Source: a virus | Lineage: Duplodnaviria; Heunggongvirae; Uroviricota; Caudoviricetes | DNA: 5,245 bases | Virus record (IMG/VR): IMGVR_UViG_2695420539_000011 | Location: 1 to 5,245 of that record | Reading direction: 5' to 3' (one strand) | Part shown: one piece after another, positions 1 to 5,245 of the stretch | How the letters are laid out: each line of letters begins with the position of its first letter | Numbering within the stretch: the stretch's first letter is position 1 | The notes under the pieces: model-generated | The model's input: only the letters and a program-made list of their open reading frames with translations | What the model was told of the DNA's origin: nothing | The model's database searches: none | Position numbers and translations under genes: made by a program

Positions 1-1176
1 ATGTTTGCTGCATTTCGTAAGGCGATGCACAAAGCCGGATTGCGCTGGTATGGCGTGCGGGTGGCTGAGCCGCATCATGACGGTACAGTTCACTGGCACC
101 TGTTGTGTTTTATGCGCAAAAAAGATCGCCGCACCATTACTGCTTTGTTGCGTAAGTTTGCCATTCGTGAAGACCGCGAGGAGCTGGGTAATAACACGGG
201 ACCACGCTTTAAGTCTGAGCTGATAAACCCGCGCAAAGGTACGCCAACAAGCTACATCGCGAAATACATCAGTAAGAACATTGACGGGCGTGGTCTGGCT
301 GGCGAGATCAGCAAGGAAACGGGTAAATCCCTGCGTGATAACGCTGAATACGTTAATGCCTGGGCGTCTCTGCATCGTGTTCAGCAATTCCGCTTCTTTG
401 GCATTCCGGGGCGTCAGGCTTACCGTGAACTGCGATTGCTGGCTGGTCAGGCGGCAAGGCAGCAGGGGGACAAAAAAGCAGGTGCGCCGGTACTGGATAA
501 CCCGCGCCTTGATGCAATCCTGGCTGCTGCTGATGCTGGTTGTTTTGCCACCTACATCATGAAGCAGGGCGGCGTACTGGTTCCCCGCAAATATCACCTC
601 ATCAGAACTGCTTATGAAATCAACGAAGAGCCGACCGCATATGGCGATCACGGTATTCGTATTTATGGCATCTGGTCACCCATTGCAGAGGGCAAGATCT
701 GCACTCATGCCGTGAAGTGGAAAATGGTTCGTAAGGCCGTTGACGTTCAGGAGGCGGCAGCCGACCAGGGCGCTTGCGCCCCTTGGACTCGTGGCAATAA
801 CTGTCCCCTTGCTGAAAATTTGTACCAACAAGGGAAAGACAAATCAGCTGATGGAGATACCAGAACGGATATCACCCGCATGGATGACAAGGAGTTGCAC
901 GATTACCTGCACAGTATGAGCAAAAAAGAGCGCCGGGAACTGGCAGCAAGGTTACGCCTGGTGAAACCGAAACGGCGTAAAGACTACAAACAGCGAATTA
1001 CAGACCATCAGCGACTGCAGCTCGTGTATGAACTGAAGTCCAGGGGATTTGATGGCAGCGAGAAAGAGGTCGATTTACTCCTTCGCGGCGGCAGTATTCC
1101 GTCGGGAGCAGGCCTGCGTATCTTCTATCGGAACCAGCGTTTGCAGGAAGATGATAAGTGGCGAAACCTGTATTAA
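1..1176 (+). CDS. A: Replication initiation endonuclease (P2 gpA-like rolling-circle Rep, HUH superfamily); 5' end lies outside the window, C-terminal ~391 codons present
   Basis: Open frame runs from window edge to TAA at 1174-1176. Contains HUH-type motif V-H-W-H-L-L (His codons at 91-93 and 97-99) and paired tyrosines in SYIAKYISK (Tyr codons 253-255 and 265-267), very like the phiX174 gpA / P2 gpA active-site motif Y-x-x-K-Y. Position immediately upstream of the DinI-like gene as in P2-family phages. Confidence 0.85.
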
Positions 1177-1268
1177 TTACGCGGGTTAACAATTCGTGCT
1201 CTTAATAATACCAGGCATATCAGGCTGATGAGCGTAAAAAAACGTTTTACATCAGTAAGATTATTATA

Positions 1269-1288
1269 TACTGTAAATATAAACAGTG
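1269..1288. promoter_or_regulatory. LexA (SOS) box, TACTGTAAATATAAACAGTG, within an AT-rich promoter region upstream of the small-ORF/DinI-like module
   Basis: Perfect CTGT-N8-ACAG core (CTGT 1271-1274, 8-nt AT-rich spacer, ACAG 1283-1286) with flanking TA...TG, matching the E. coli LexA operator consensus TACTG(TA)5CAGTA. Lies about 40 nt upstream of the RBS/ATG at 1319-1331. Exact -35/-10 hexamers could not be assigned unambiguously. Confidence 0.65.
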
Positions 1289-1328
1289 GTTATGTATACA
1301 GTATTGCTTTGGTGTCATAGGAGGAAAG

Positions 1329-1517
1329 ATGCAGGACTATTTTTTGGAGTCTTTGAAGCTCCAGCGCATTGATTTTTTTCTTAAGCTTGTAGCGGCTAGT
1401 GAGTGTAGTGATGAAGAGAAGGGGCTGGCTCTGCAGTGGGTTTCTGAACTGACAGATGAACTCATGGCAAAAATCAGAACCCACGAATACAACCGCTCAA
1501 TGGATGTCATCAGCTGA
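1329..1517 (+). CDS. Small hypothetical protein (62 aa); possibly the N-terminal portion of a 186 Tum-like antirepressor split from the downstream DinI-like ORF
   Basis: ATG at 1329 preceded by a strong Shine-Dalgarno AGGAGG (1319-1324). Stop TGA 1515-1517 overlaps the RBS of the next gene. Sits directly downstream of the LexA box. Function not recognisable from sequence. Confidence 0.45.
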   Translation: MQDYFLESLKLQRIDFFLKLVAASECSDEEKGLALQWVSELTDELMAKIRTHEYNRSMDVIS

Positions 1518-1527
1518 GGTGACTTTT

Positions 1528-1761
1528 ATGCGCATTGAAATAATGATCGATAAAGAGCAGAAGATTAGCCAGTCTACACTGGACGCCCTTGAATCCGAGC
1601 TTTACCGCAATCTGCGCCCCCTGTATCCCAAAACGGTAATTCGTATCCGCAAAGGTAGCTCTAACGGTGTGGAACTTACCGGATTGCAACTGGACGAAGA
1701 AAGAAAACAAGTGATGAAAATTATGCAGAAGGTGTGGGAAGACGACAGCTGGCTGCATTAA
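1528..1761 (+). CDS. DinI-family protein (77 aa; similar to E. coli DinI, to the C-terminal domain of 186 Tum and, I believe, to P2 Orf91)
   Basis: Product MRIEIMIDKEQKISQSTLDALESELYRNL...ERKQVMKIMQKVWEDDSWLH aligns by eye along its length with E. coli DinI (MRIEVTIAKTSPLPAGAIDALAGELSRRI...KQRISEILQETWESADDWF). RBS GAGGTG at 1516-1521, 6 nt before the ATG at 1528. Stop TAA 1759-1761. The track's longer 1456 start was set aside because DinI homology begins exactly at MRIE and there is an RBS in front of 1528. Confidence 0.8.
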   Translation: MRIEIMIDKEQKISQSTLDALESELYRNLRPLYPKTVIRIRKGSSNGVELTGLQLDEERKQVMKIMQKVWEDDSWLH

Positions 1762-1849
1762 GAAACGTTGCTGGCGTCTGAACCTGCTTCTGGCGTCAGC
1801 AAGGTTGAACCGCGAGCCTTGAGAGGCGTTAACCATAAGTAAAAAGACA

Positions 1850-1972
1850 GTAATCATTTGATTATCTATCAGGGCGAGACCTATGCTGCACTTTTAGTTA
1901 TAACTCATAATGTATTGAAATTATTAGAATATATGTCATTCTTAAAATGTGTATGCTTATCAAGGAGCAAGA
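1850..1972 (+). promoter_or_regulatory. AT-rich upstream region of the cargo gene, presumed to contain its promoter; RBS AAGGAG at 1962-1967
   Basis: Very AT-rich stretch with several imperfect -35/-10-like hexamers (for example TTGAAA 1915-1920, CATAAT 1906-1911, TAGAAT 1925-1930), none in a convincing pairing, so the exact promoter is not called. The RBS is clear. Confidence 0.3.
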
Positions 1973-2845
1973 ATGAAACGTGGCATTGTAGCTAATCCTA
2001 ATGAAATGAGTTTTCATAGAAATAATAGTACGGTCTATCTTGGGGCAGGTTTAACTGAGCAGGATATTAATTATTTCTGCTTTTACTGGGATGATGTGGT
2101 TATTCTAGATAGTGAAAATATTCACTCGATTGTGCCTAAAGAAAAAGAATTATTAGATAATGGGGTATTACGTAGACCTATTATGAAACATGATGGTATG
2201 CTGAATATCCAAGACTTTCCATTTTTATATACGGAATTTCAGTTGCAGACATTGGATGAATTCAGGAAGAACGAGCCTGCTACTTATTGGCACTTTCATC
2301 AAACAGGGGAAAATTTAATATATGATAAAGAACAGAAAACGGCCCTTCAGTTGAGATTGGAGTTGTTTAATGTTCTGAGAATTCCTGATAAAGATGCTCA
2401 TATAGAAGATATATTACGTTTTAAAGATGATTGTCAGGATGATCTTAATGCGTTACATGAGTACTTAGAAAAACTGTATACTGAAGTCCTTTATTCTAGA
2501 GACCCTAATCTAACGAGGGCTAAAAATTTTTCTTTATTACAAGAGGCTGTAGTTAATCTTGATAAAGCTATCGAAGGGAAATGGAGAAATCCTATCAGAA
2601 TGGGAGTCAAAGCCAATCCAGAAGTAGATGGTGGGCAGGTTATGGAATTTTTAAAACCGTTGTACCATGCTGCTATTGCTGGTTATTCAGGCGGTATTAT
2701 TCCCGGTATGGTTACAGCCTTGGCAACCGCAATTCCAAGTTTTATAAAATTCCAACCAGAATGGGTGGGCTTTAGAGATAAGGGGCCTAAAGAATTAGCT
2801 TATCTTACCAAAGCAACGCATAAGGGGTTGATTAAGAGAGCTTAA
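1973..2845 (+). CDS. Hypothetical protein, 290 aa, AT-rich cargo gene at the tin/old-equivalent position; candidate phage-defence or exclusion protein with a C-terminal hydrophobic (putative transmembrane) segment
   Basis: Long uninterrupted ORF. ATG at 1973 with RBS AAGGAG 5 nt upstream; the track's GTG at 1949 is in frame but lacks an RBS. Stop TAA 2843-2845. Marked drop in GC relative to the flanking phage genes. Hydrophobic, Gly/Ala-rich stretch around residues 227-259 (AAIAGYSGGIIPGMVTALATAIPSFI). I recognise no similarity to any protein family. Confidence 0.7.
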   Translation: MKRGIVANPNEMSFHRNNSTVYLGAGLTEQDINYFCFYWDDVVILDSENIHSIVPKEKELLDNGVLRRPIMKHDGMLNIQDFPFLYTEFQLQTLDEFRKNEPATYWHFHQTGENLIYDKEQKTALQLRLELFNVLRIPDKDAHIEDILRFKDDCQDDLNALHEYLEKLYTEVLYSRDPNLTRAKNFSLLQEAVVNLDKAIEGKWRNPIRMGVKANPEVDGGQVMEFLKPLYHAAIAGYSGGIIPGMVTALATAIPSFIKFQPEWVGFRDKGPKELAYLTKATHKGLIKRA

Positions 2846-2946
2846 GGCATTTTAATCGATTTTCGCAACTATATTCCTTCGTAACCACACAAGTGCATGA
2901 CTATGCCGCATGAATCCGCATGATCGTTTGAGGATCGTTTTAGCTG

Positions 2947-2976
2947 AGGCCCGCTAGGAATGGCGGGCCTTTGCTT
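2947..2976 (+). terminator. Putative rho-independent terminator for the cargo gene transcript
   Basis: GC-rich inverted repeat AGGCCCGC (2947-2954) / GCGGGCCT (2963-2970) with an 8-nt loop, followed by a T-rich tail TTTGCTT (to 2976). About 100 nt downstream of the cargo gene stop. Confidence 0.5.
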
Positions 2977-3017
2977 ATGTCATGCAGGCGCATGAAAACC
3001 ACTACATAAAGCGGGCA

Positions 3018-3036
3018 GGCGTGGCGGGGATACGAG
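3018..3036. other. Putative cos (cohesive end) site of the P2/186 type: GGCGTGGCGGGGATACGAG
   Basis: From memory, the first 13 nt (GGCGTGGCGGGGA) match the 19-nt cohesive end of phage 186 (GGCGTGGCGGGGAAAGCAT) and nearly match P2 (GGCGAGGCGGGGAAAGCAC). Located about 160 bp beyond the end of Q, in the expected orientation and position. The last 6 nt diverge, so exact termini are uncertain. Confidence 0.4.
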
Positions 3037-3120
3037 CGCGCGCAACGGGGTAAAATGGCCAAAATCCGGCGCAGCCTCTGGCCCGCTGGCAGCCTCATTT
3101 TGCGTAGGGGGAAAATGTCA

Positions 3121-3195: not shown

Positions 3196-4242
3196 TCAGC
3201 CTCGTTTGCTCTTAAGTCCTAAGTCATAGGTTTCAAAACGGATCACCTTTTCACCCAGCCAGTTGTTAAGCTCCAGCAGTCGCTTTTGCAGTGGCATCAG
3301 CTCATTGCGGACGAAAACACGGCTCGCCTTTTCCACATCACCGAAGCCGCCAGTGTTGTTGGGAATGATACCCATCATTTGCGGCGGTACGCGGTGTGCC
3401 GCCATCATGTCGTCCCGACTCACGTTCTTGATGTTCAGAAATTCATCCTTCGCCGCGACTTCCGACAACGGGATGATCTGAAGCCCGTCCTTTTTGCCGT
3501 TAGGCGAGTACATAAACAGGTTACGGAAGTTACCAGGACCTTTGGCACTTTTCATTGCGTTGCGGAGGTTGTTCACATCCTCCTGGTTCTGCGCGGCGTC
3601 GGTCATGTACATGATGAAGCCCGCATGGCTGCCGTTAATGTAATACTTCCGGCGGAACAGCGTGGCGGACTCGTTGAGCAGGGCGGATGGAATGGCAGAA
3701 AGGTAACCTGGCAGACCATAAATCTCCTGGTTGATATCCGGCTCCATCAGGTGGAAGACGTTACCTTTTGTGAACTGATACGGCTGTGTCGTCAGGCTGT
3801 ATTGCACAAACCAGTAGGTATCCAGGTCTAACCCGCGTCGGGTGTATTTTGCCAGCGCAGGTTCAAGGGCGATAACTTCACCGAAGCGGTTCGTGCGTTT
3901 CTCCAGGTAGGCGTTACCAAATACCAGATAGTCCTGCACAAAACGTGAAAAAGCCTGCTGGCTGAGCAGTGGGTGAGGGATATAGGTGCTGGTCAGAATG
4001 TTGCACTTTACTGCAATCGGTGAGCTGTGGTGTACGGCGGCGCGGAATGTTCGCGCCAGGCCGTCGAAACTCACAGGCGGCTCATACCAGCGGTCCATCT
4101 GTACGCATTCCACATAGTCCAGCAGTTCGCGGCGGTCAAGTACTGGAACGGGATCACCGAAGCTGAATGCTTCGGCTGAAGTCTGGCTTTTATGCTGAAT
4201 CTGGTTCGTCGACGCAGCGCGGTTCTTCTTACTCTTTCCCAT
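3196..4242 (-). CDS. Q: Portal protein (P2 gpQ-like), 348 aa
   Basis: Minus-strand ORF of portal-typical size immediately downstream of the terminase gene, with the P2-family gene order cos-Q-P. ATG at 4240-4242 (minus strand) with GGAG 8 nt upstream; the track's 4245 start is an in-frame TTG one codon earlier. Stop TGA at 3196-3198. Confidence 0.85.
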   Translation of the reverse strand: MGKSKKNRAASTNQIQHKSQTSAEAFSFGDPVPVLDRRELLDYVECVQMDRWYEPPVSFDGLARTFRAAVHHSSPIAVKCNILTSTYIPHPLLSQQAFSRFVQDYLVFGNAYLEKRTNRFGEVIALEPALAKYTRRGLDLDTYWFVQYSLTTQPYQFTKGNVFHLMEPDINQEIYGLPGYLSAIPSALLNESATLFRRKYYINGSHAGFIMYMTDAAQNQEDVNNLRNAMKSAKGPGNFRNLFMYSPNGKKDGLQIIPLSEVAAKDEFLNIKNVSRDDMMAAHRVPPQMMGIIPNNTGGFGDVEKASRVFVRNELMPLQKRLLELNNWLGEKVIRFETYDLGLKSKRG

Positions 4243-5245
4243 CAAAAAATCTCCACAATATTGCTGGTATTGGCGGACTCGCCCTGCAGCGGTTCGTTAA
4301 ACAGTGCGTGCATTGTTGCCCAGGCCAGATCGGCGTGGCTGGCTTCTTCGCTGCGGCTGGCTTCATAGGTCGGGCGGTTGCCGCTGGCGGTGGTTGCGCG
4401 ACGGATTGCCATGAATGACTGCGCAATGTCGGTGTGTCCGGCGTCAAACTCCAGACGGCGGTGGCTGATAATGTCGTAGGCCTTGAGTACCAGGGCATTT
4501 TTAACATTGGGGTTATAGACAAACTCCCGGACGGCAGGAAAGAAAGCTTTCACGTTCTCATAAACCCCGTGACCAACGCCGGTCGAGTCGATACCGATAT
4601 ACGTAACGTTGTACTGTTCGGTGAGTTTTTTGATGGCGTCAGCCTGGGCGCGGAAGTCCATCCCGCGCCACTGGTGACGCTCAAGAATGCGGAACTTACC
4701 ACCCGGCACGGCTGGCGGAGCCACCACCACGCATCCGGCACTGTCGCCGTTCTGCGTACCTTTTGCCGGGTCATAACCGATCCACACTTCGCGCCAGCCA
4801 AACGGGCGCAGCGCCAGTGCATGAAAGTCGGTCCAGACTTCCCAGCTGTCCACCATGCACGCCTGCAGCTCGCTGAGCGGGAACACGGACGCGAGATCGT
4901 CCACGAACTCACACATCAGCAGGTTCTGGTATTCGTCCGGGCTGTACTCCATGCGCAACTGGCCGAGGTCGAACAGGTTACAGCCACCGCGCACCGCATC
5001 TTCCACGGTGACTATCTGGCGGTATTGCCCGTCTGCGCACAGCAGGCCGGGTGCCAGATTGCTGTGGGACAGGTCGATGTCCACCTTGTCAGCTTTGTTG
5101 CGCCCACGGTTGAACAGCGCACCGGACCAGAACGGATAAGCACTGTGGGTCAGACTGGATGGTGTGGAAAAATAGGTCTGCCGCCATTTCTTGTGAATAG
5201 CCATACCGGAAGCCACTTTGCGTAGCTCCTGAAATTTCGGTATCC
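4242..5245 (-). CDS. P: Terminase ATPase / large subunit (P2 gpP-like); C-terminal ~334 codons, 5' end outside the window
   Basis: Minus-strand frame is open from the window edge (no stop between 5216 and 5245; the track's 5216 start is an internal GTG) to TGA at 4242-4244. The C-terminal region is consistent with a terminase nuclease domain. Position directly upstream of, and overlapping, the portal gene. Confidence 0.85.
   Translation of the reverse strand, partial: IPKFQELRKVASGMAIHKKWRQTYFSTPSSLTHSAYPFWSGALFNRGRNKADKVDIDLSHSNLAPGLLCADGQYRQIVTVEDAVRGGCNLFDLGQLRMEYSPDEYQNLLMCEFVDDLASVFPLSELQACMVDSWEVWTDFHALALRPFGWREVWIGYDPAKGTQNGDSAGCVVVAPPAVPGGKFRILERHQWRGMDFRAQADAIKKLTEQYNVTYIGIDSTGVGHGVYENVKAFFPAVREFVYNPNVKNALVLKAYDIISHRRLEFDAGHTDIAQSFMAIRRATTASGNRPTYEASRSEEASHADLAWATMHALFNEPLQGESANTSNIVEIF

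What the first reader, a model, noticed from the sequence alone, without database searches (positions are those of the whole stretch)
2651..2750. C-terminal hydrophobic Gly/Ala-rich segment in the cargo protein suggests a membrane-acting effector
Residues about 227-259 (LKPLYHAAIAGYSGGIIPGMVTALATAIPSFIK) form a roughly 26-residue apolar stretch rich in small residues, followed by a basic tail (KFQPEWVGFRDKGPKELAYLTKATHKGLIKRA). The preceding ~225 residues are hydrophilic, and residues ~135-175 are rich in acidic and leucine residues. A soluble N-terminal domain with a C-terminal membrane anchor or pore-forming helix is a recurring design of abortive-infection and superinfection-exclusion proteins. 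The mechanism is speculative.
Basis: inference. Interest (0 to 1): 0.55.

Follow-up and report, generated by a model that had tools for sequence, protein, structure and literature searches.

The report
Hydrophobic hairpin in a prophage cargo protein
The apolar stretch is real and conserved across a large uncharacterised protein family (DUF6236) that temperate phages carry next to their DNA-packaging end, but it is an internal helix-loop-helix below transmembrane thresholds rather than a C-terminal membrane anchor, and neither a defence role nor membrane action has been shown.

Summary
Window 1973-2845 (+) encodes a 290-aa DUF6236 protein. It is the only swapped-in gene (cassette 1832-2891, about 34% GC against about 52%) in the gpA-cos-portal accessory hotspot of a P2/186-like E. 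coli prophage. In this sequence alone only its lack of charge stands out (30 uncharged residues, 0.5% of shuffles). Its hydrophobicity falls below every transmembrane threshold tried. Across the family the feature is robust: about 33 residues, 5% charged, 44% small residues, helical periodicity, always at the same place. A confident AlphaFold model puts it between two beta-strands. The "basic tail" forms two further strands and carries the family's most conserved motif. It is therefore an inserted hydrophobic hairpin, not an anchor plus tail. The fold has no solved relative and there is no conserved partner gene. Divergent homologues occupy accessory slots beside the packaging genes of unrelated lambdoid and Vibrio phages. 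The protein is already listed as an untested hotspot system (Rousset 2022) and predicted defensive by DefensePredictor (2026). One DUF6236 homologue tested there gave no defence. A membrane-acting effector remains possible but unproven. Interest is modest.

The parts
1832..2891 (.). Swapped-in cargo cassette of the hotspot (low GC); holds the DUF6236 gene and 140 bp of AT-rich upstream DNA
   Evidence: blastn against relative CP019275 aligns window 1-1831, 2892-3053 and 3284-5245 only. GC is 34-41% against about 52% in the flanks.
1962..1967 (+). Shine-Dalgarno AAGGAG, 5 nt before ATG 1973
   Evidence: Read from the sequence.
1973..2845 (+). DUF6236-family protein, 290 aa (RefSeq WP_053901735.1), single-domain, no signal peptide
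   Evidence: Pfam PF19749 E 6.4e-21, 75 bits against cut-off 26. phrog_23128 E 2e-31. RefSeq annotation. No PADLOC or NCBIfam hit.
2597..2620 (+). Amphipathic beta-strand (residues 209-216) before the hairpin
   Evidence: AlphaFold DSSP. 180-degree hydrophobic periodicity in the family columns.
2639..2746 (+). Charge-poor, small-residue-rich helix-loop-helix (residues 223-258).
   Evidence: Helices 222-240 and 246-249, pLDDT 49-68. 100-degree periodicity in both halves. The linker 236-246 is mostly gaps in the family.
2744..2818 (+). Two beta-strands (residues 258-266 and 275-282) formed by the 'basic tail'; includes the conserved L-A-Y-L-[ST]-x-A motif
   Evidence: AlphaFold pLDDT 84-86. Y277 is present in 126 of 136 homologues.
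1..1176 (+). C-terminal part of the P2-type replication endonuclease gpA (left border of the hotspot)
   Evidence: Pfam Phage_GPA E 5.8e-44. RefSeq annotation.
1329..1517 (+). Small conserved hotspot ORF (62 aa, phrog_698)
1528..1761 (+). DinI-like protein, conserved backbone gene of the hotspot
   Evidence: Pfam DinI E 1.3e-22. RefSeq coordinates.
2892..3053 (.). Conserved backbone element with a terminator-like hairpin (2948-2975) and a cos-like GGCGTGGCGGGGA (from 3019)
   Evidence: 88% identical to CP019275, where it lies before that phage's cargo. Sequence read. The cos assignment is from memory and was not tested.
3196..4242 (-). Portal protein gpQ (right border of the hotspot)
   Evidence: Pfam Phage_portal. 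RefSeq annotation.
4242..5245 (-). Large terminase gpP, cut by the window end
   Evidence: Pfam Terminase_6N/6C. RefSeq annotation.

Best explanation
The gene is a stand-alone accessory ('moron') gene of temperate phages. Here it is the single cargo gene of the P2 gpA-cos-gpQ hotspot, most likely serving the lysogen in competition with other phages.

The protein is a cytoplasmic one-domain alpha/beta protein of a fold with no solved relative.

I commit to this reading: the hairpin is a lipid-facing element that dips into the cytoplasmic leaflet of the inner membrane as a re-entrant or monotopic anchor. At most it is a latent insertion device released on infection. It holds the globular domain at the membrane, where phage DNA entry and lysis take place.

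It is not a single-pass C-terminal anchor and not a constitutive pore.

Shown: gene, family, cassette, hotspot, family-wide conservation of the hairpin's character, model topology, absence of a partner gene.
Inferred: defence role, membrane contact, re-entrant geometry.
For: Hotspot and cassette:
- gpA, DinI, portal and terminase flanks.
- Rousset 2022 defines this interval as an anti-phage hotspot and lists this exact protein as single-gene system 125, 'DUF6236', 23 loci.
- Cassette limits and the GC drop.

Recurrent phage cargo:
- A 60% homologue sits in the same P2 slot in Klebsiella.
- A 69% homologue is retained in a decayed P2 remnant in Hafnia, beside an AAA_15/21 ATPase.
- 31% and 44% homologues lie between the lysis cassette and the small terminase of two different lambdoid prophage types.
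- A Vibrio phage carries one as the first gene at the genome end.
- Neighbours in other genomes include Mrr, HNH, PD-(D/E)XK and HEPN genes and PADLOC candidate systems.
- No neighbour recurs between unrelated loci.

Prediction: DefensePredictor log-odds 8.3 for this exact protein.

Hairpin:
- Its position is conserved in 90% of homologues.
- Composition is conserved while sequence and length (21-47 residues) vary. It is 5% charged, 44% small residues, 8-fold enriched in small-xxx-small motifs, with helical periodicity, and basic residues follow at 259/261/263.
- It has the lowest pLDDT between confident strands. That suits a lipid-exposed or partner-buried element better than a packed core.
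Against: - No transmembrane threshold is reached. Kyte-Doolittle 1.55, with a family median of 1.48 and only 25% of members at 1.6 or above. Eisenberg 0.64. Hessa-type sum about +5 kcal/mol, with no family member at or below 0.
- Both halves show an amphipathic pattern, and Asp/Glu occur at columns 225 and 232 in about a quarter of members.
- A near-identical E. coli variant has Asp at 238.
- I could not inspect the model's coordinates, so exposure of the hairpin is inferred from pLDDT only.
- A 289-aa DUF6236 homologue cloned in MG1655 gave no defence against 24 phages. Its identity to this protein is unknown.
- Many family members sit among housekeeping genes.
- No experiment addresses localisation.
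Confidence: 0.35

Rival explanations
1. The protein is soluble. The apolar hairpin is a buried structural element or a homo-oligomerisation interface, and whatever the protein does (defence or otherwise) is carried out by the conserved N-terminal alpha/beta and helical part, not at the membrane.
For: - Hydrophobicity is below all transmembrane thresholds, and in this one sequence it is not exceptional against shuffles.
- Each half has large hydrophobic residues on one face and small residues on the other, a pattern typical of tight helix packing.
- Charged residues are tolerated at several positions, including Y238D.
- There is no signal peptide.
- The helices in the median family member are only 12-14 residues long, too short to span a bilayer.
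- The nearly invariant residues (Y38-W39-D40, W106, P138, F150-K151, Y169, D177) all lie outside the hairpin.
Against: - Neither helix face is polar, so the hairpin cannot sit on a solvent-exposed surface.
- Packed cores are usually the best-predicted and least indel-tolerant parts of a fold. This segment has the lowest pLDDT (49-68) and its length varies from 21 to 47 residues.
Confidence: 0.35
2. One reading: an abortive-infection or exclusion effector in which the stretch is a true transmembrane anchor or a pore-forming helix that depolarises the cell on infection.
For: - The hotspot context and the defence prediction.
- The conserved charge-free segment with glycine-zipper-like small-xxx-small repeats.
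- 25% of family members exceed Kyte-Doolittle 1.6.
- In this subfamily the two halves are longer (about 19 and 17 residues) and could just span a bilayer as a hairpin.
Against: - A single-pass anchor conflicts with the model, because the residues after the stretch form strands of the same domain.
- The insertion-energy estimate is strongly positive, and two prolines sit inside the most hydrophobic window.
- The gene is carried stably in lysogens, and a homologue was clonable and inactive against 24 phages.
Confidence: 0.15
3. The gene is not an anti-phage gene at all. It is a moron with another role, such as lysogenic conversion, modulation of host physiology, or help with the phage's own packaging or lysis, given its place beside cos, terminase or lysis genes.
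For: - One family member tested negative for defence.
- No PADLOC hit.
- Many chromosomal homologues lie among housekeeping genes.
- The position next to the lysis cassette and terminase in lambdoid prophages.
Against: - The position beside cos is simply where accessory genes accumulate in these phages, and the P2 copy is far from the P2 lysis genes.
- The copy retained in a decayed prophage remnant in Hafnia argues for benefit to the host rather than a phage-cycle function.
- Nuclease, HEPN and ATPase neighbours and a high DefensePredictor score.
Confidence: 0.15

Closest known systems
Cargo systems of the P2 gpA-gpQ hotspot (Old, Tin and single-gene systems such as the DUF4238 protein; Rousset et al. 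2022, PMC9122126)
   Same: Same interval between the replication gene and the portal gene next to cos. A single low-GC gene swapped in as a cassette. This exact protein is listed there as system 125.
   Different: No sequence relation to any of them: only DUF6236 is hit in Pfam at E<=0.1 and nothing in PADLOC at E<=1. It was not among the systems they tested.
DefensePredictor candidate '6236' (DeWeirdt et al., Science 2026, PMC13092281)
   Same: Same Pfam family and nearly the same length (289 against 290 aa). Both are predicted defensive, with log-odds 8.56 and 8.32.
   Different: That protein (WP_097421955.1) is a different sequence, and its identity to this one could not be established. It was scored non-defensive against 24 phages in MG1655.
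Prophage membrane exclusion and abortive-infection proteins (lambda RexB, T4 Imm/Sp, P22 SieA, HK97 gp15; from general knowledge)
   Same: Prophage-borne accessory proteins with apolar segments, thought to act at the inner membrane.
   Different: Those have clear transmembrane helices or lipoprotein signals. This protein has a large soluble domain, no signal peptide and one sub-threshold hairpin. There is no homology.
Soluble proteins with a latent hydrophobic helical hairpin (pore-forming colicin domains, Bcl-2 family, diphtheria toxin T domain; from general knowledge)
   Same: A water-soluble fold carrying a charge-free, Ala/Gly-rich helix-loop-helix of about 35 residues.

Membership tests
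Pfam DUF6236 (PF19749) | Score above the family's gathering threshold over most of the protein | tested here: met
   75.3 bits against a cut-off of 26.2, E 6.4e-21, residues 35-281. A profile search finds 1003 cluster representatives, nearly all 280-300 aa with full-length matches.
P2-hotspot cargo (Rousset 2022) | Located between the gpA replication endonuclease and the gpQ portal of a P2-like prophage, and variable between related phages | tested here: met
   Flanking genes. The cassette is replaced by other DNA in CP019275 and in 80+ related phages. Listed in Table S5 of the paper.
Integral membrane protein with a C-terminal (tail) anchor | A segment that passes standard transmembrane hydrophobicity thresholds | tested here: not met
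   Kyte-Doolittle 19-mer 1.55 (<1.6). Eisenberg 21-mer 0.64 (<0.68). Hessa-type sum +5.2 kcal/mol. Wimley-White -3.6. DeepTMHMM was not available.
Integral membrane protein with a C-terminal (tail) anchor | Nothing folded after the anchor (a short luminal or periplasmic tail) | tested here: not met
   The 31 residues after the stretch form two strands with pLDDT 84-86 and hold the family's most conserved motif.
Known anti-phage defence systems (PADLOC-DB v2) | Match to a model of a known or candidate defence protein | tested here: not met
   No hit at E<=1.
Experimentally validated defence gene | Reduces plating of at least one phage when expressed | not testable with these tools
   Published data exist only for another family member, and they are negative. 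This protein is untested.
Multi-gene system (toxin-antitoxin or sensor-effector pair) | A partner gene conserved next to it | tested here: not met
   All-against-all BLAST of neighbours in 20 diverse loci: only the DUF6236 gene recurs between unrelated loci. The window cassette holds one gene.
Pore-forming colicin / Bcl-2-like folds | Structural similarity of the whole domain | tested here: not met

The most novel reading that the evidence does not exclude
DUF6236 is a widespread, single-protein, phage-borne immunity module with a previously unseen fold. A latent hydrophobic hairpin, held between two beta-strands of a soluble domain, is released on infection and inserts into or perturbs the inner membrane. 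This module has been captured independently into the cos-proximal accessory slot of at least four unrelated temperate-phage lineages.
Probability: 0.15. Interest if true: 0.65.

Novelty: new member of a known kind. Interest (0 to 1): 0.35.

Why it matters
If the hairpin does mediate membrane contact and the protein does exclude phages, DUF6236 would be a compact one-gene immunity module with a new fold. The family has about 1000 clusters at 50% identity, spread across many bacterial phyla and several phage types. It would also be a clean model for how a soluble protein keeps a membrane-active element latent.

As things stand, the value of this work is mostly corrective. The stretch should not be annotated as a transmembrane anchor. 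The gene is already catalogued as a candidate. The single published test of a relative was negative, so a claim of defence needs new experiments with this allele in its native lysogen.

Tried and rejected
- **Known defence families.** PADLOC, NCBIfam and Pfam gave nothing beyond DUF6236.
- **Solved structures by sequence.** Profiles of 13 and of 136 sequences gave nothing significant. The best hit was E 0.18, to 14-3-3 helices.
- **Fold searches.**
  - The AFDB library was unavailable.
- **First AlphaFold run.** With 13 sequences it was poor (pLDDT 59, C-terminus below 35). It was superseded by the 136-sequence run.
- **Conserved partner gene.** None was found.
- **Domain fusions that might reveal function.** Only an N-terminal SEC-C zinc motif in two members, and one probable chimera with a dUTPase fragment.
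- **Promoter for the cassette.** The consensus scan found none upstream of the gene.
- **Literature.**
  - No paper text mentions DUF6236 or PF19749.
  - The supplements of Vassallo 2022 have no entry.
  - The supplements of the 2026 P2/P4 hotspot paper and of the metagenomic selection paper are not held.
- **Sequence of the tested homologue WP_097421955.1.** It is not in the supplements and not among the cluster members read. E. coli complete genomes hold only copies at least 99.3% identical to this allele.
- **Chance apolar run.** Rejected because of the position-specific conservation across the family.

Full report
**What the window is**

The window is part of a P2/186-like prophage of E. 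coli.
- Bases 1-1176 (+) encode the C-terminal part of the replication endonuclease gpA.
- 3196-4242 (-) encode the portal protein.
- 4242 to the window end (-) encode the large terminase.
- Between gpA and the portal lie a 62-aa ORF (1329-1517), a DinI-like gene (1528-1761) and a 290-aa ORF (ATG 1973 to 2845, preceded by AAGGAG).

GC falls to about 34% across the 290-aa gene, against about 52% in the flanks. A related P2-like element (CP019275) aligns with window 1-1831, 2892-3053 and 3284-5245 only. The swapped-in cassette is therefore 1832-2891 and holds this one gene.

The interval between gpA and the portal, next to cos, is the anti-phage hotspot of P2-like phages described by Rousset et al. 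2022 (PMC9122126).

**Checking the observation**

Its composition is as described:
- 42% Gly/Ala/Ser/Thr, against 17% elsewhere.
- The next 31 residues have 7 K+R and 3 D+E.
- Residues 135-175 are acid- and Leu-rich.

Taken alone, the stretch stands out only by its lack of charge. A 30-residue uncharged run (P229-I258) occurs in 0.5% of shuffles. Its mean hydrophobicity is reached in 8-23% of shuffles.

All four hydrophobicity scales put the stretch at or below the borderline for a transmembrane helix:

| Scale | This protein | Family |
|---|---|---|
| Kyte-Doolittle, 19 residues | 1.55 (threshold 1.6) | median 1.48; 25% at 1.6 or above |
| Eisenberg, 21 residues | 0.64 (threshold 0.68) | 5% at 0.68 or above |
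| Hessa-type insertion sum | about +5 kcal/mol | no member at or below 0 |
| Wimley-White octanol | -3.6 kcal/mol | median -3.6 |

The Hessa and Wimley-White values were computed on the 90%-identity cluster representative P0001. It differs from the window protein only by Y238D, and that residue lies outside the best-scoring windows.

**The family**

The protein belongs to Pfam DUF6236. A profile search of 1.8 billion representatives finds 1003 clusters, 448 of them at E<=1e-10. Nearly all are 280-300 aa and match end to end.

In 90% of 136 full-length members the most hydrophobic 19-mer is at the same relative position. In the alignment:
- Columns 223-258 are 5% charged, against 26% elsewhere.
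- They are 44% small residues, against 21% elsewhere.
- Small-xxx-small-xxx-small motifs are 8 times denser there.
- The segment length varies from 21 to 47 residues.
- The segment splits into two short stretches with 100-degree (helical) periodicity, joined by a Gly/Pro-rich linker of variable length.
- The stretches on either side (208-219 and 258-266) alternate with 180-degree (strand) periodicity.
- The C-terminal motif L275-A-Y277-L-[ST]-x-A281 is among the most conserved in the family.

The apolar element is therefore a real, selected feature. It is conserved in character rather than in sequence.

**Structure**

With 13 sequences AlphaFold gave a poor model. With 136 sequences it gave pLDDT 84.4 and pTM 0.83.

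The hairpin (helices 222-240 and 246-249, pLDDT 49-68) lies between strand 209-216 and strand 258-266. A further strand at 275-282 follows. Both of these C-terminal strands have pLDDT 84-86.

Both ends of the apolar stretch must lie on the same side of any membrane. This rules out the simple picture of a soluble domain, a single-pass C-terminal anchor and a tail. It leaves either a hairpin (re-entrant or transmembrane) or a protein-buried element.

I could not read the coordinates, so exposure is inferred only from the low confidence of the hairpin.

The fold has no solved relative:
- Foldseek against the PDB, best E 0.056.
- Foldseek against BFVD, nothing at E<=0.001.
- Sequence profiles against the PDB, nothing significant.

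**Genomic context of relatives**

No partner gene is conserved across 20 loci from many phyla.

The family recurs as phage cargo:
- A 60% homologue sits in the same P2 slot in Klebsiella.
- A 69% homologue survives in a decayed P2 remnant in Hafnia, next to an AAA_15/AAA_21 ATPase.
- 31% and 44% homologues lie between the lysis cassette and the small terminase of two different lambdoid prophage types.
- A Vibrio phage carries one at its genome end, beside an HNH gene.
- Acinetobacter plasmids carry one 21 bp after a HEPN gene.

Elsewhere the direct neighbours include Mrr, HNH and PD-(D/E)XK genes and PADLOC candidate systems. Many copies also sit among housekeeping genes. Two members carry an N-terminal SEC-C zinc motif.

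In E. coli, 22 of 5426 complete genomes carry this allele, all at 99.3% nucleotide identity or more.

**Prior knowledge**

No paper text mentions DUF6236, but two supplements do.
- Rousset 2022, Table S5, lists this exact sequence as single-gene system 125 ('DUF6236', 23 loci). It is not among the systems they tested.
- The DefensePredictor paper (PMC13092281) scores this exact protein, WP_053901735.1, as a predicted novel defence gene (log-odds 8.32).
- The same paper tested a 289-aa family member from another E. coli strain (working id '6236', WP_097421955.1). [quoted passage not shown] The recorded result was defensive = FALSE.

I could not obtain the sequence of that tested protein. Its length matches the lambdoid-prophage lineage (289 aa, 31-44% identical to this protein), but that match is a guess.

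**Interpretation**

The best-supported statements are these:
- This is a stand-alone accessory gene of temperate phages.
- It is a credible but unvalidated anti-phage candidate.
- Its apolar stretch is an inserted helix-loop-helix, not an anchor plus tail.

On what the hairpin does, the evidence is split.

For a lipid-facing role:
- Neither helix face is polar.
- Only composition is conserved, while sequence and length drift.
- Confidence is lowest there, between confident strands.
- Basic residues follow the hairpin.

For a protein-buried or oligomer-interface role:
- The hydrophobicity is sub-threshold.
- The pattern is large residues on one face and small on the other.
- Acidic residues are tolerated at some positions. 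The near-identical allele with Asp at 238 is one example.
- The helices are only 12-14 residues long in the median family member.

I favour a re-entrant or monotopic association with the inner leaflet (confidence 0.35). The soluble, buried reading is rated equal (0.35).

**Verdict**

- The gene is a catalogued member of an uncharacterised family in a known hotspot.
- Interest is modest.
- It would rise if localisation and a defence phenotype were demonstrated.

Noticed in passing
window 2892-3053 (cos-like GGCGTGGCGGGGATACGAG at 3019-3037; hairpin 2948-2975): A 160-bp backbone element with a terminator-like hairpin and a sequence that, from memory, resembles the 186/P2 cohesive end. It lies after the cargo here but before the cargo in relative CP019275. 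Cassettes can therefore be inserted on either side of it.
   Followed up: partly
window 2684-2686 (codon 238 of the cargo protein): The 90%-identity cluster representative differs from the window protein only by Y238D, in the linker of the hydrophobic hairpin. The linker therefore tolerates a charge.
   Followed up: partly
L025-L031 (Klebsiella and Enterobacter prophages), gene at 6001-6870: Divergent DUF6236 genes (31-44% identity, 289 aa) sit between the holin/endolysin cassette and the small terminase of two different lambdoid prophage types. This is a second and third phage backbone with the family beside the packaging end.
   Followed up: partly
L034/L035 (Hafnia alvei), 5001-7836: A 69% homologue is kept in a decayed P2 remnant (portal fragment, Ogr/Delta gene), followed by a 561-aa AAA_15/AAA_21 ATPase. 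This looks like domesticated hotspot cargo.
   Followed up: no
L023 (Acinetobacter lwoffii plasmid pALWED1.3), 4934-6882: A DUF6236 gene starts 21 bp after a HEPN-domain gene on a 16-kb plasmid, possibly a two-gene arrangement in that lineage. A weak HEPN_RiboL-PSP hit also occurs two genes downstream in Marinobacter locus L003.
   Followed up: no
P0157 and P0053 (distant family members): An N-terminal SEC-C zinc-binding motif is fused to the DUF6236 domain.
   Followed up: no
E. coli ZH177, NZ_CM125652.1 3135579-3138221 (hit H20): An IS1B element is inserted inside this hotspot next to the DUF6236 gene in one strain.
   Followed up: no
window 1329-1761: The small phrog_698 ORF and the DinI-like gene are a constant part of the hotspot in many P2-like prophages. 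They precede the variable cargo.
   Followed up: partly
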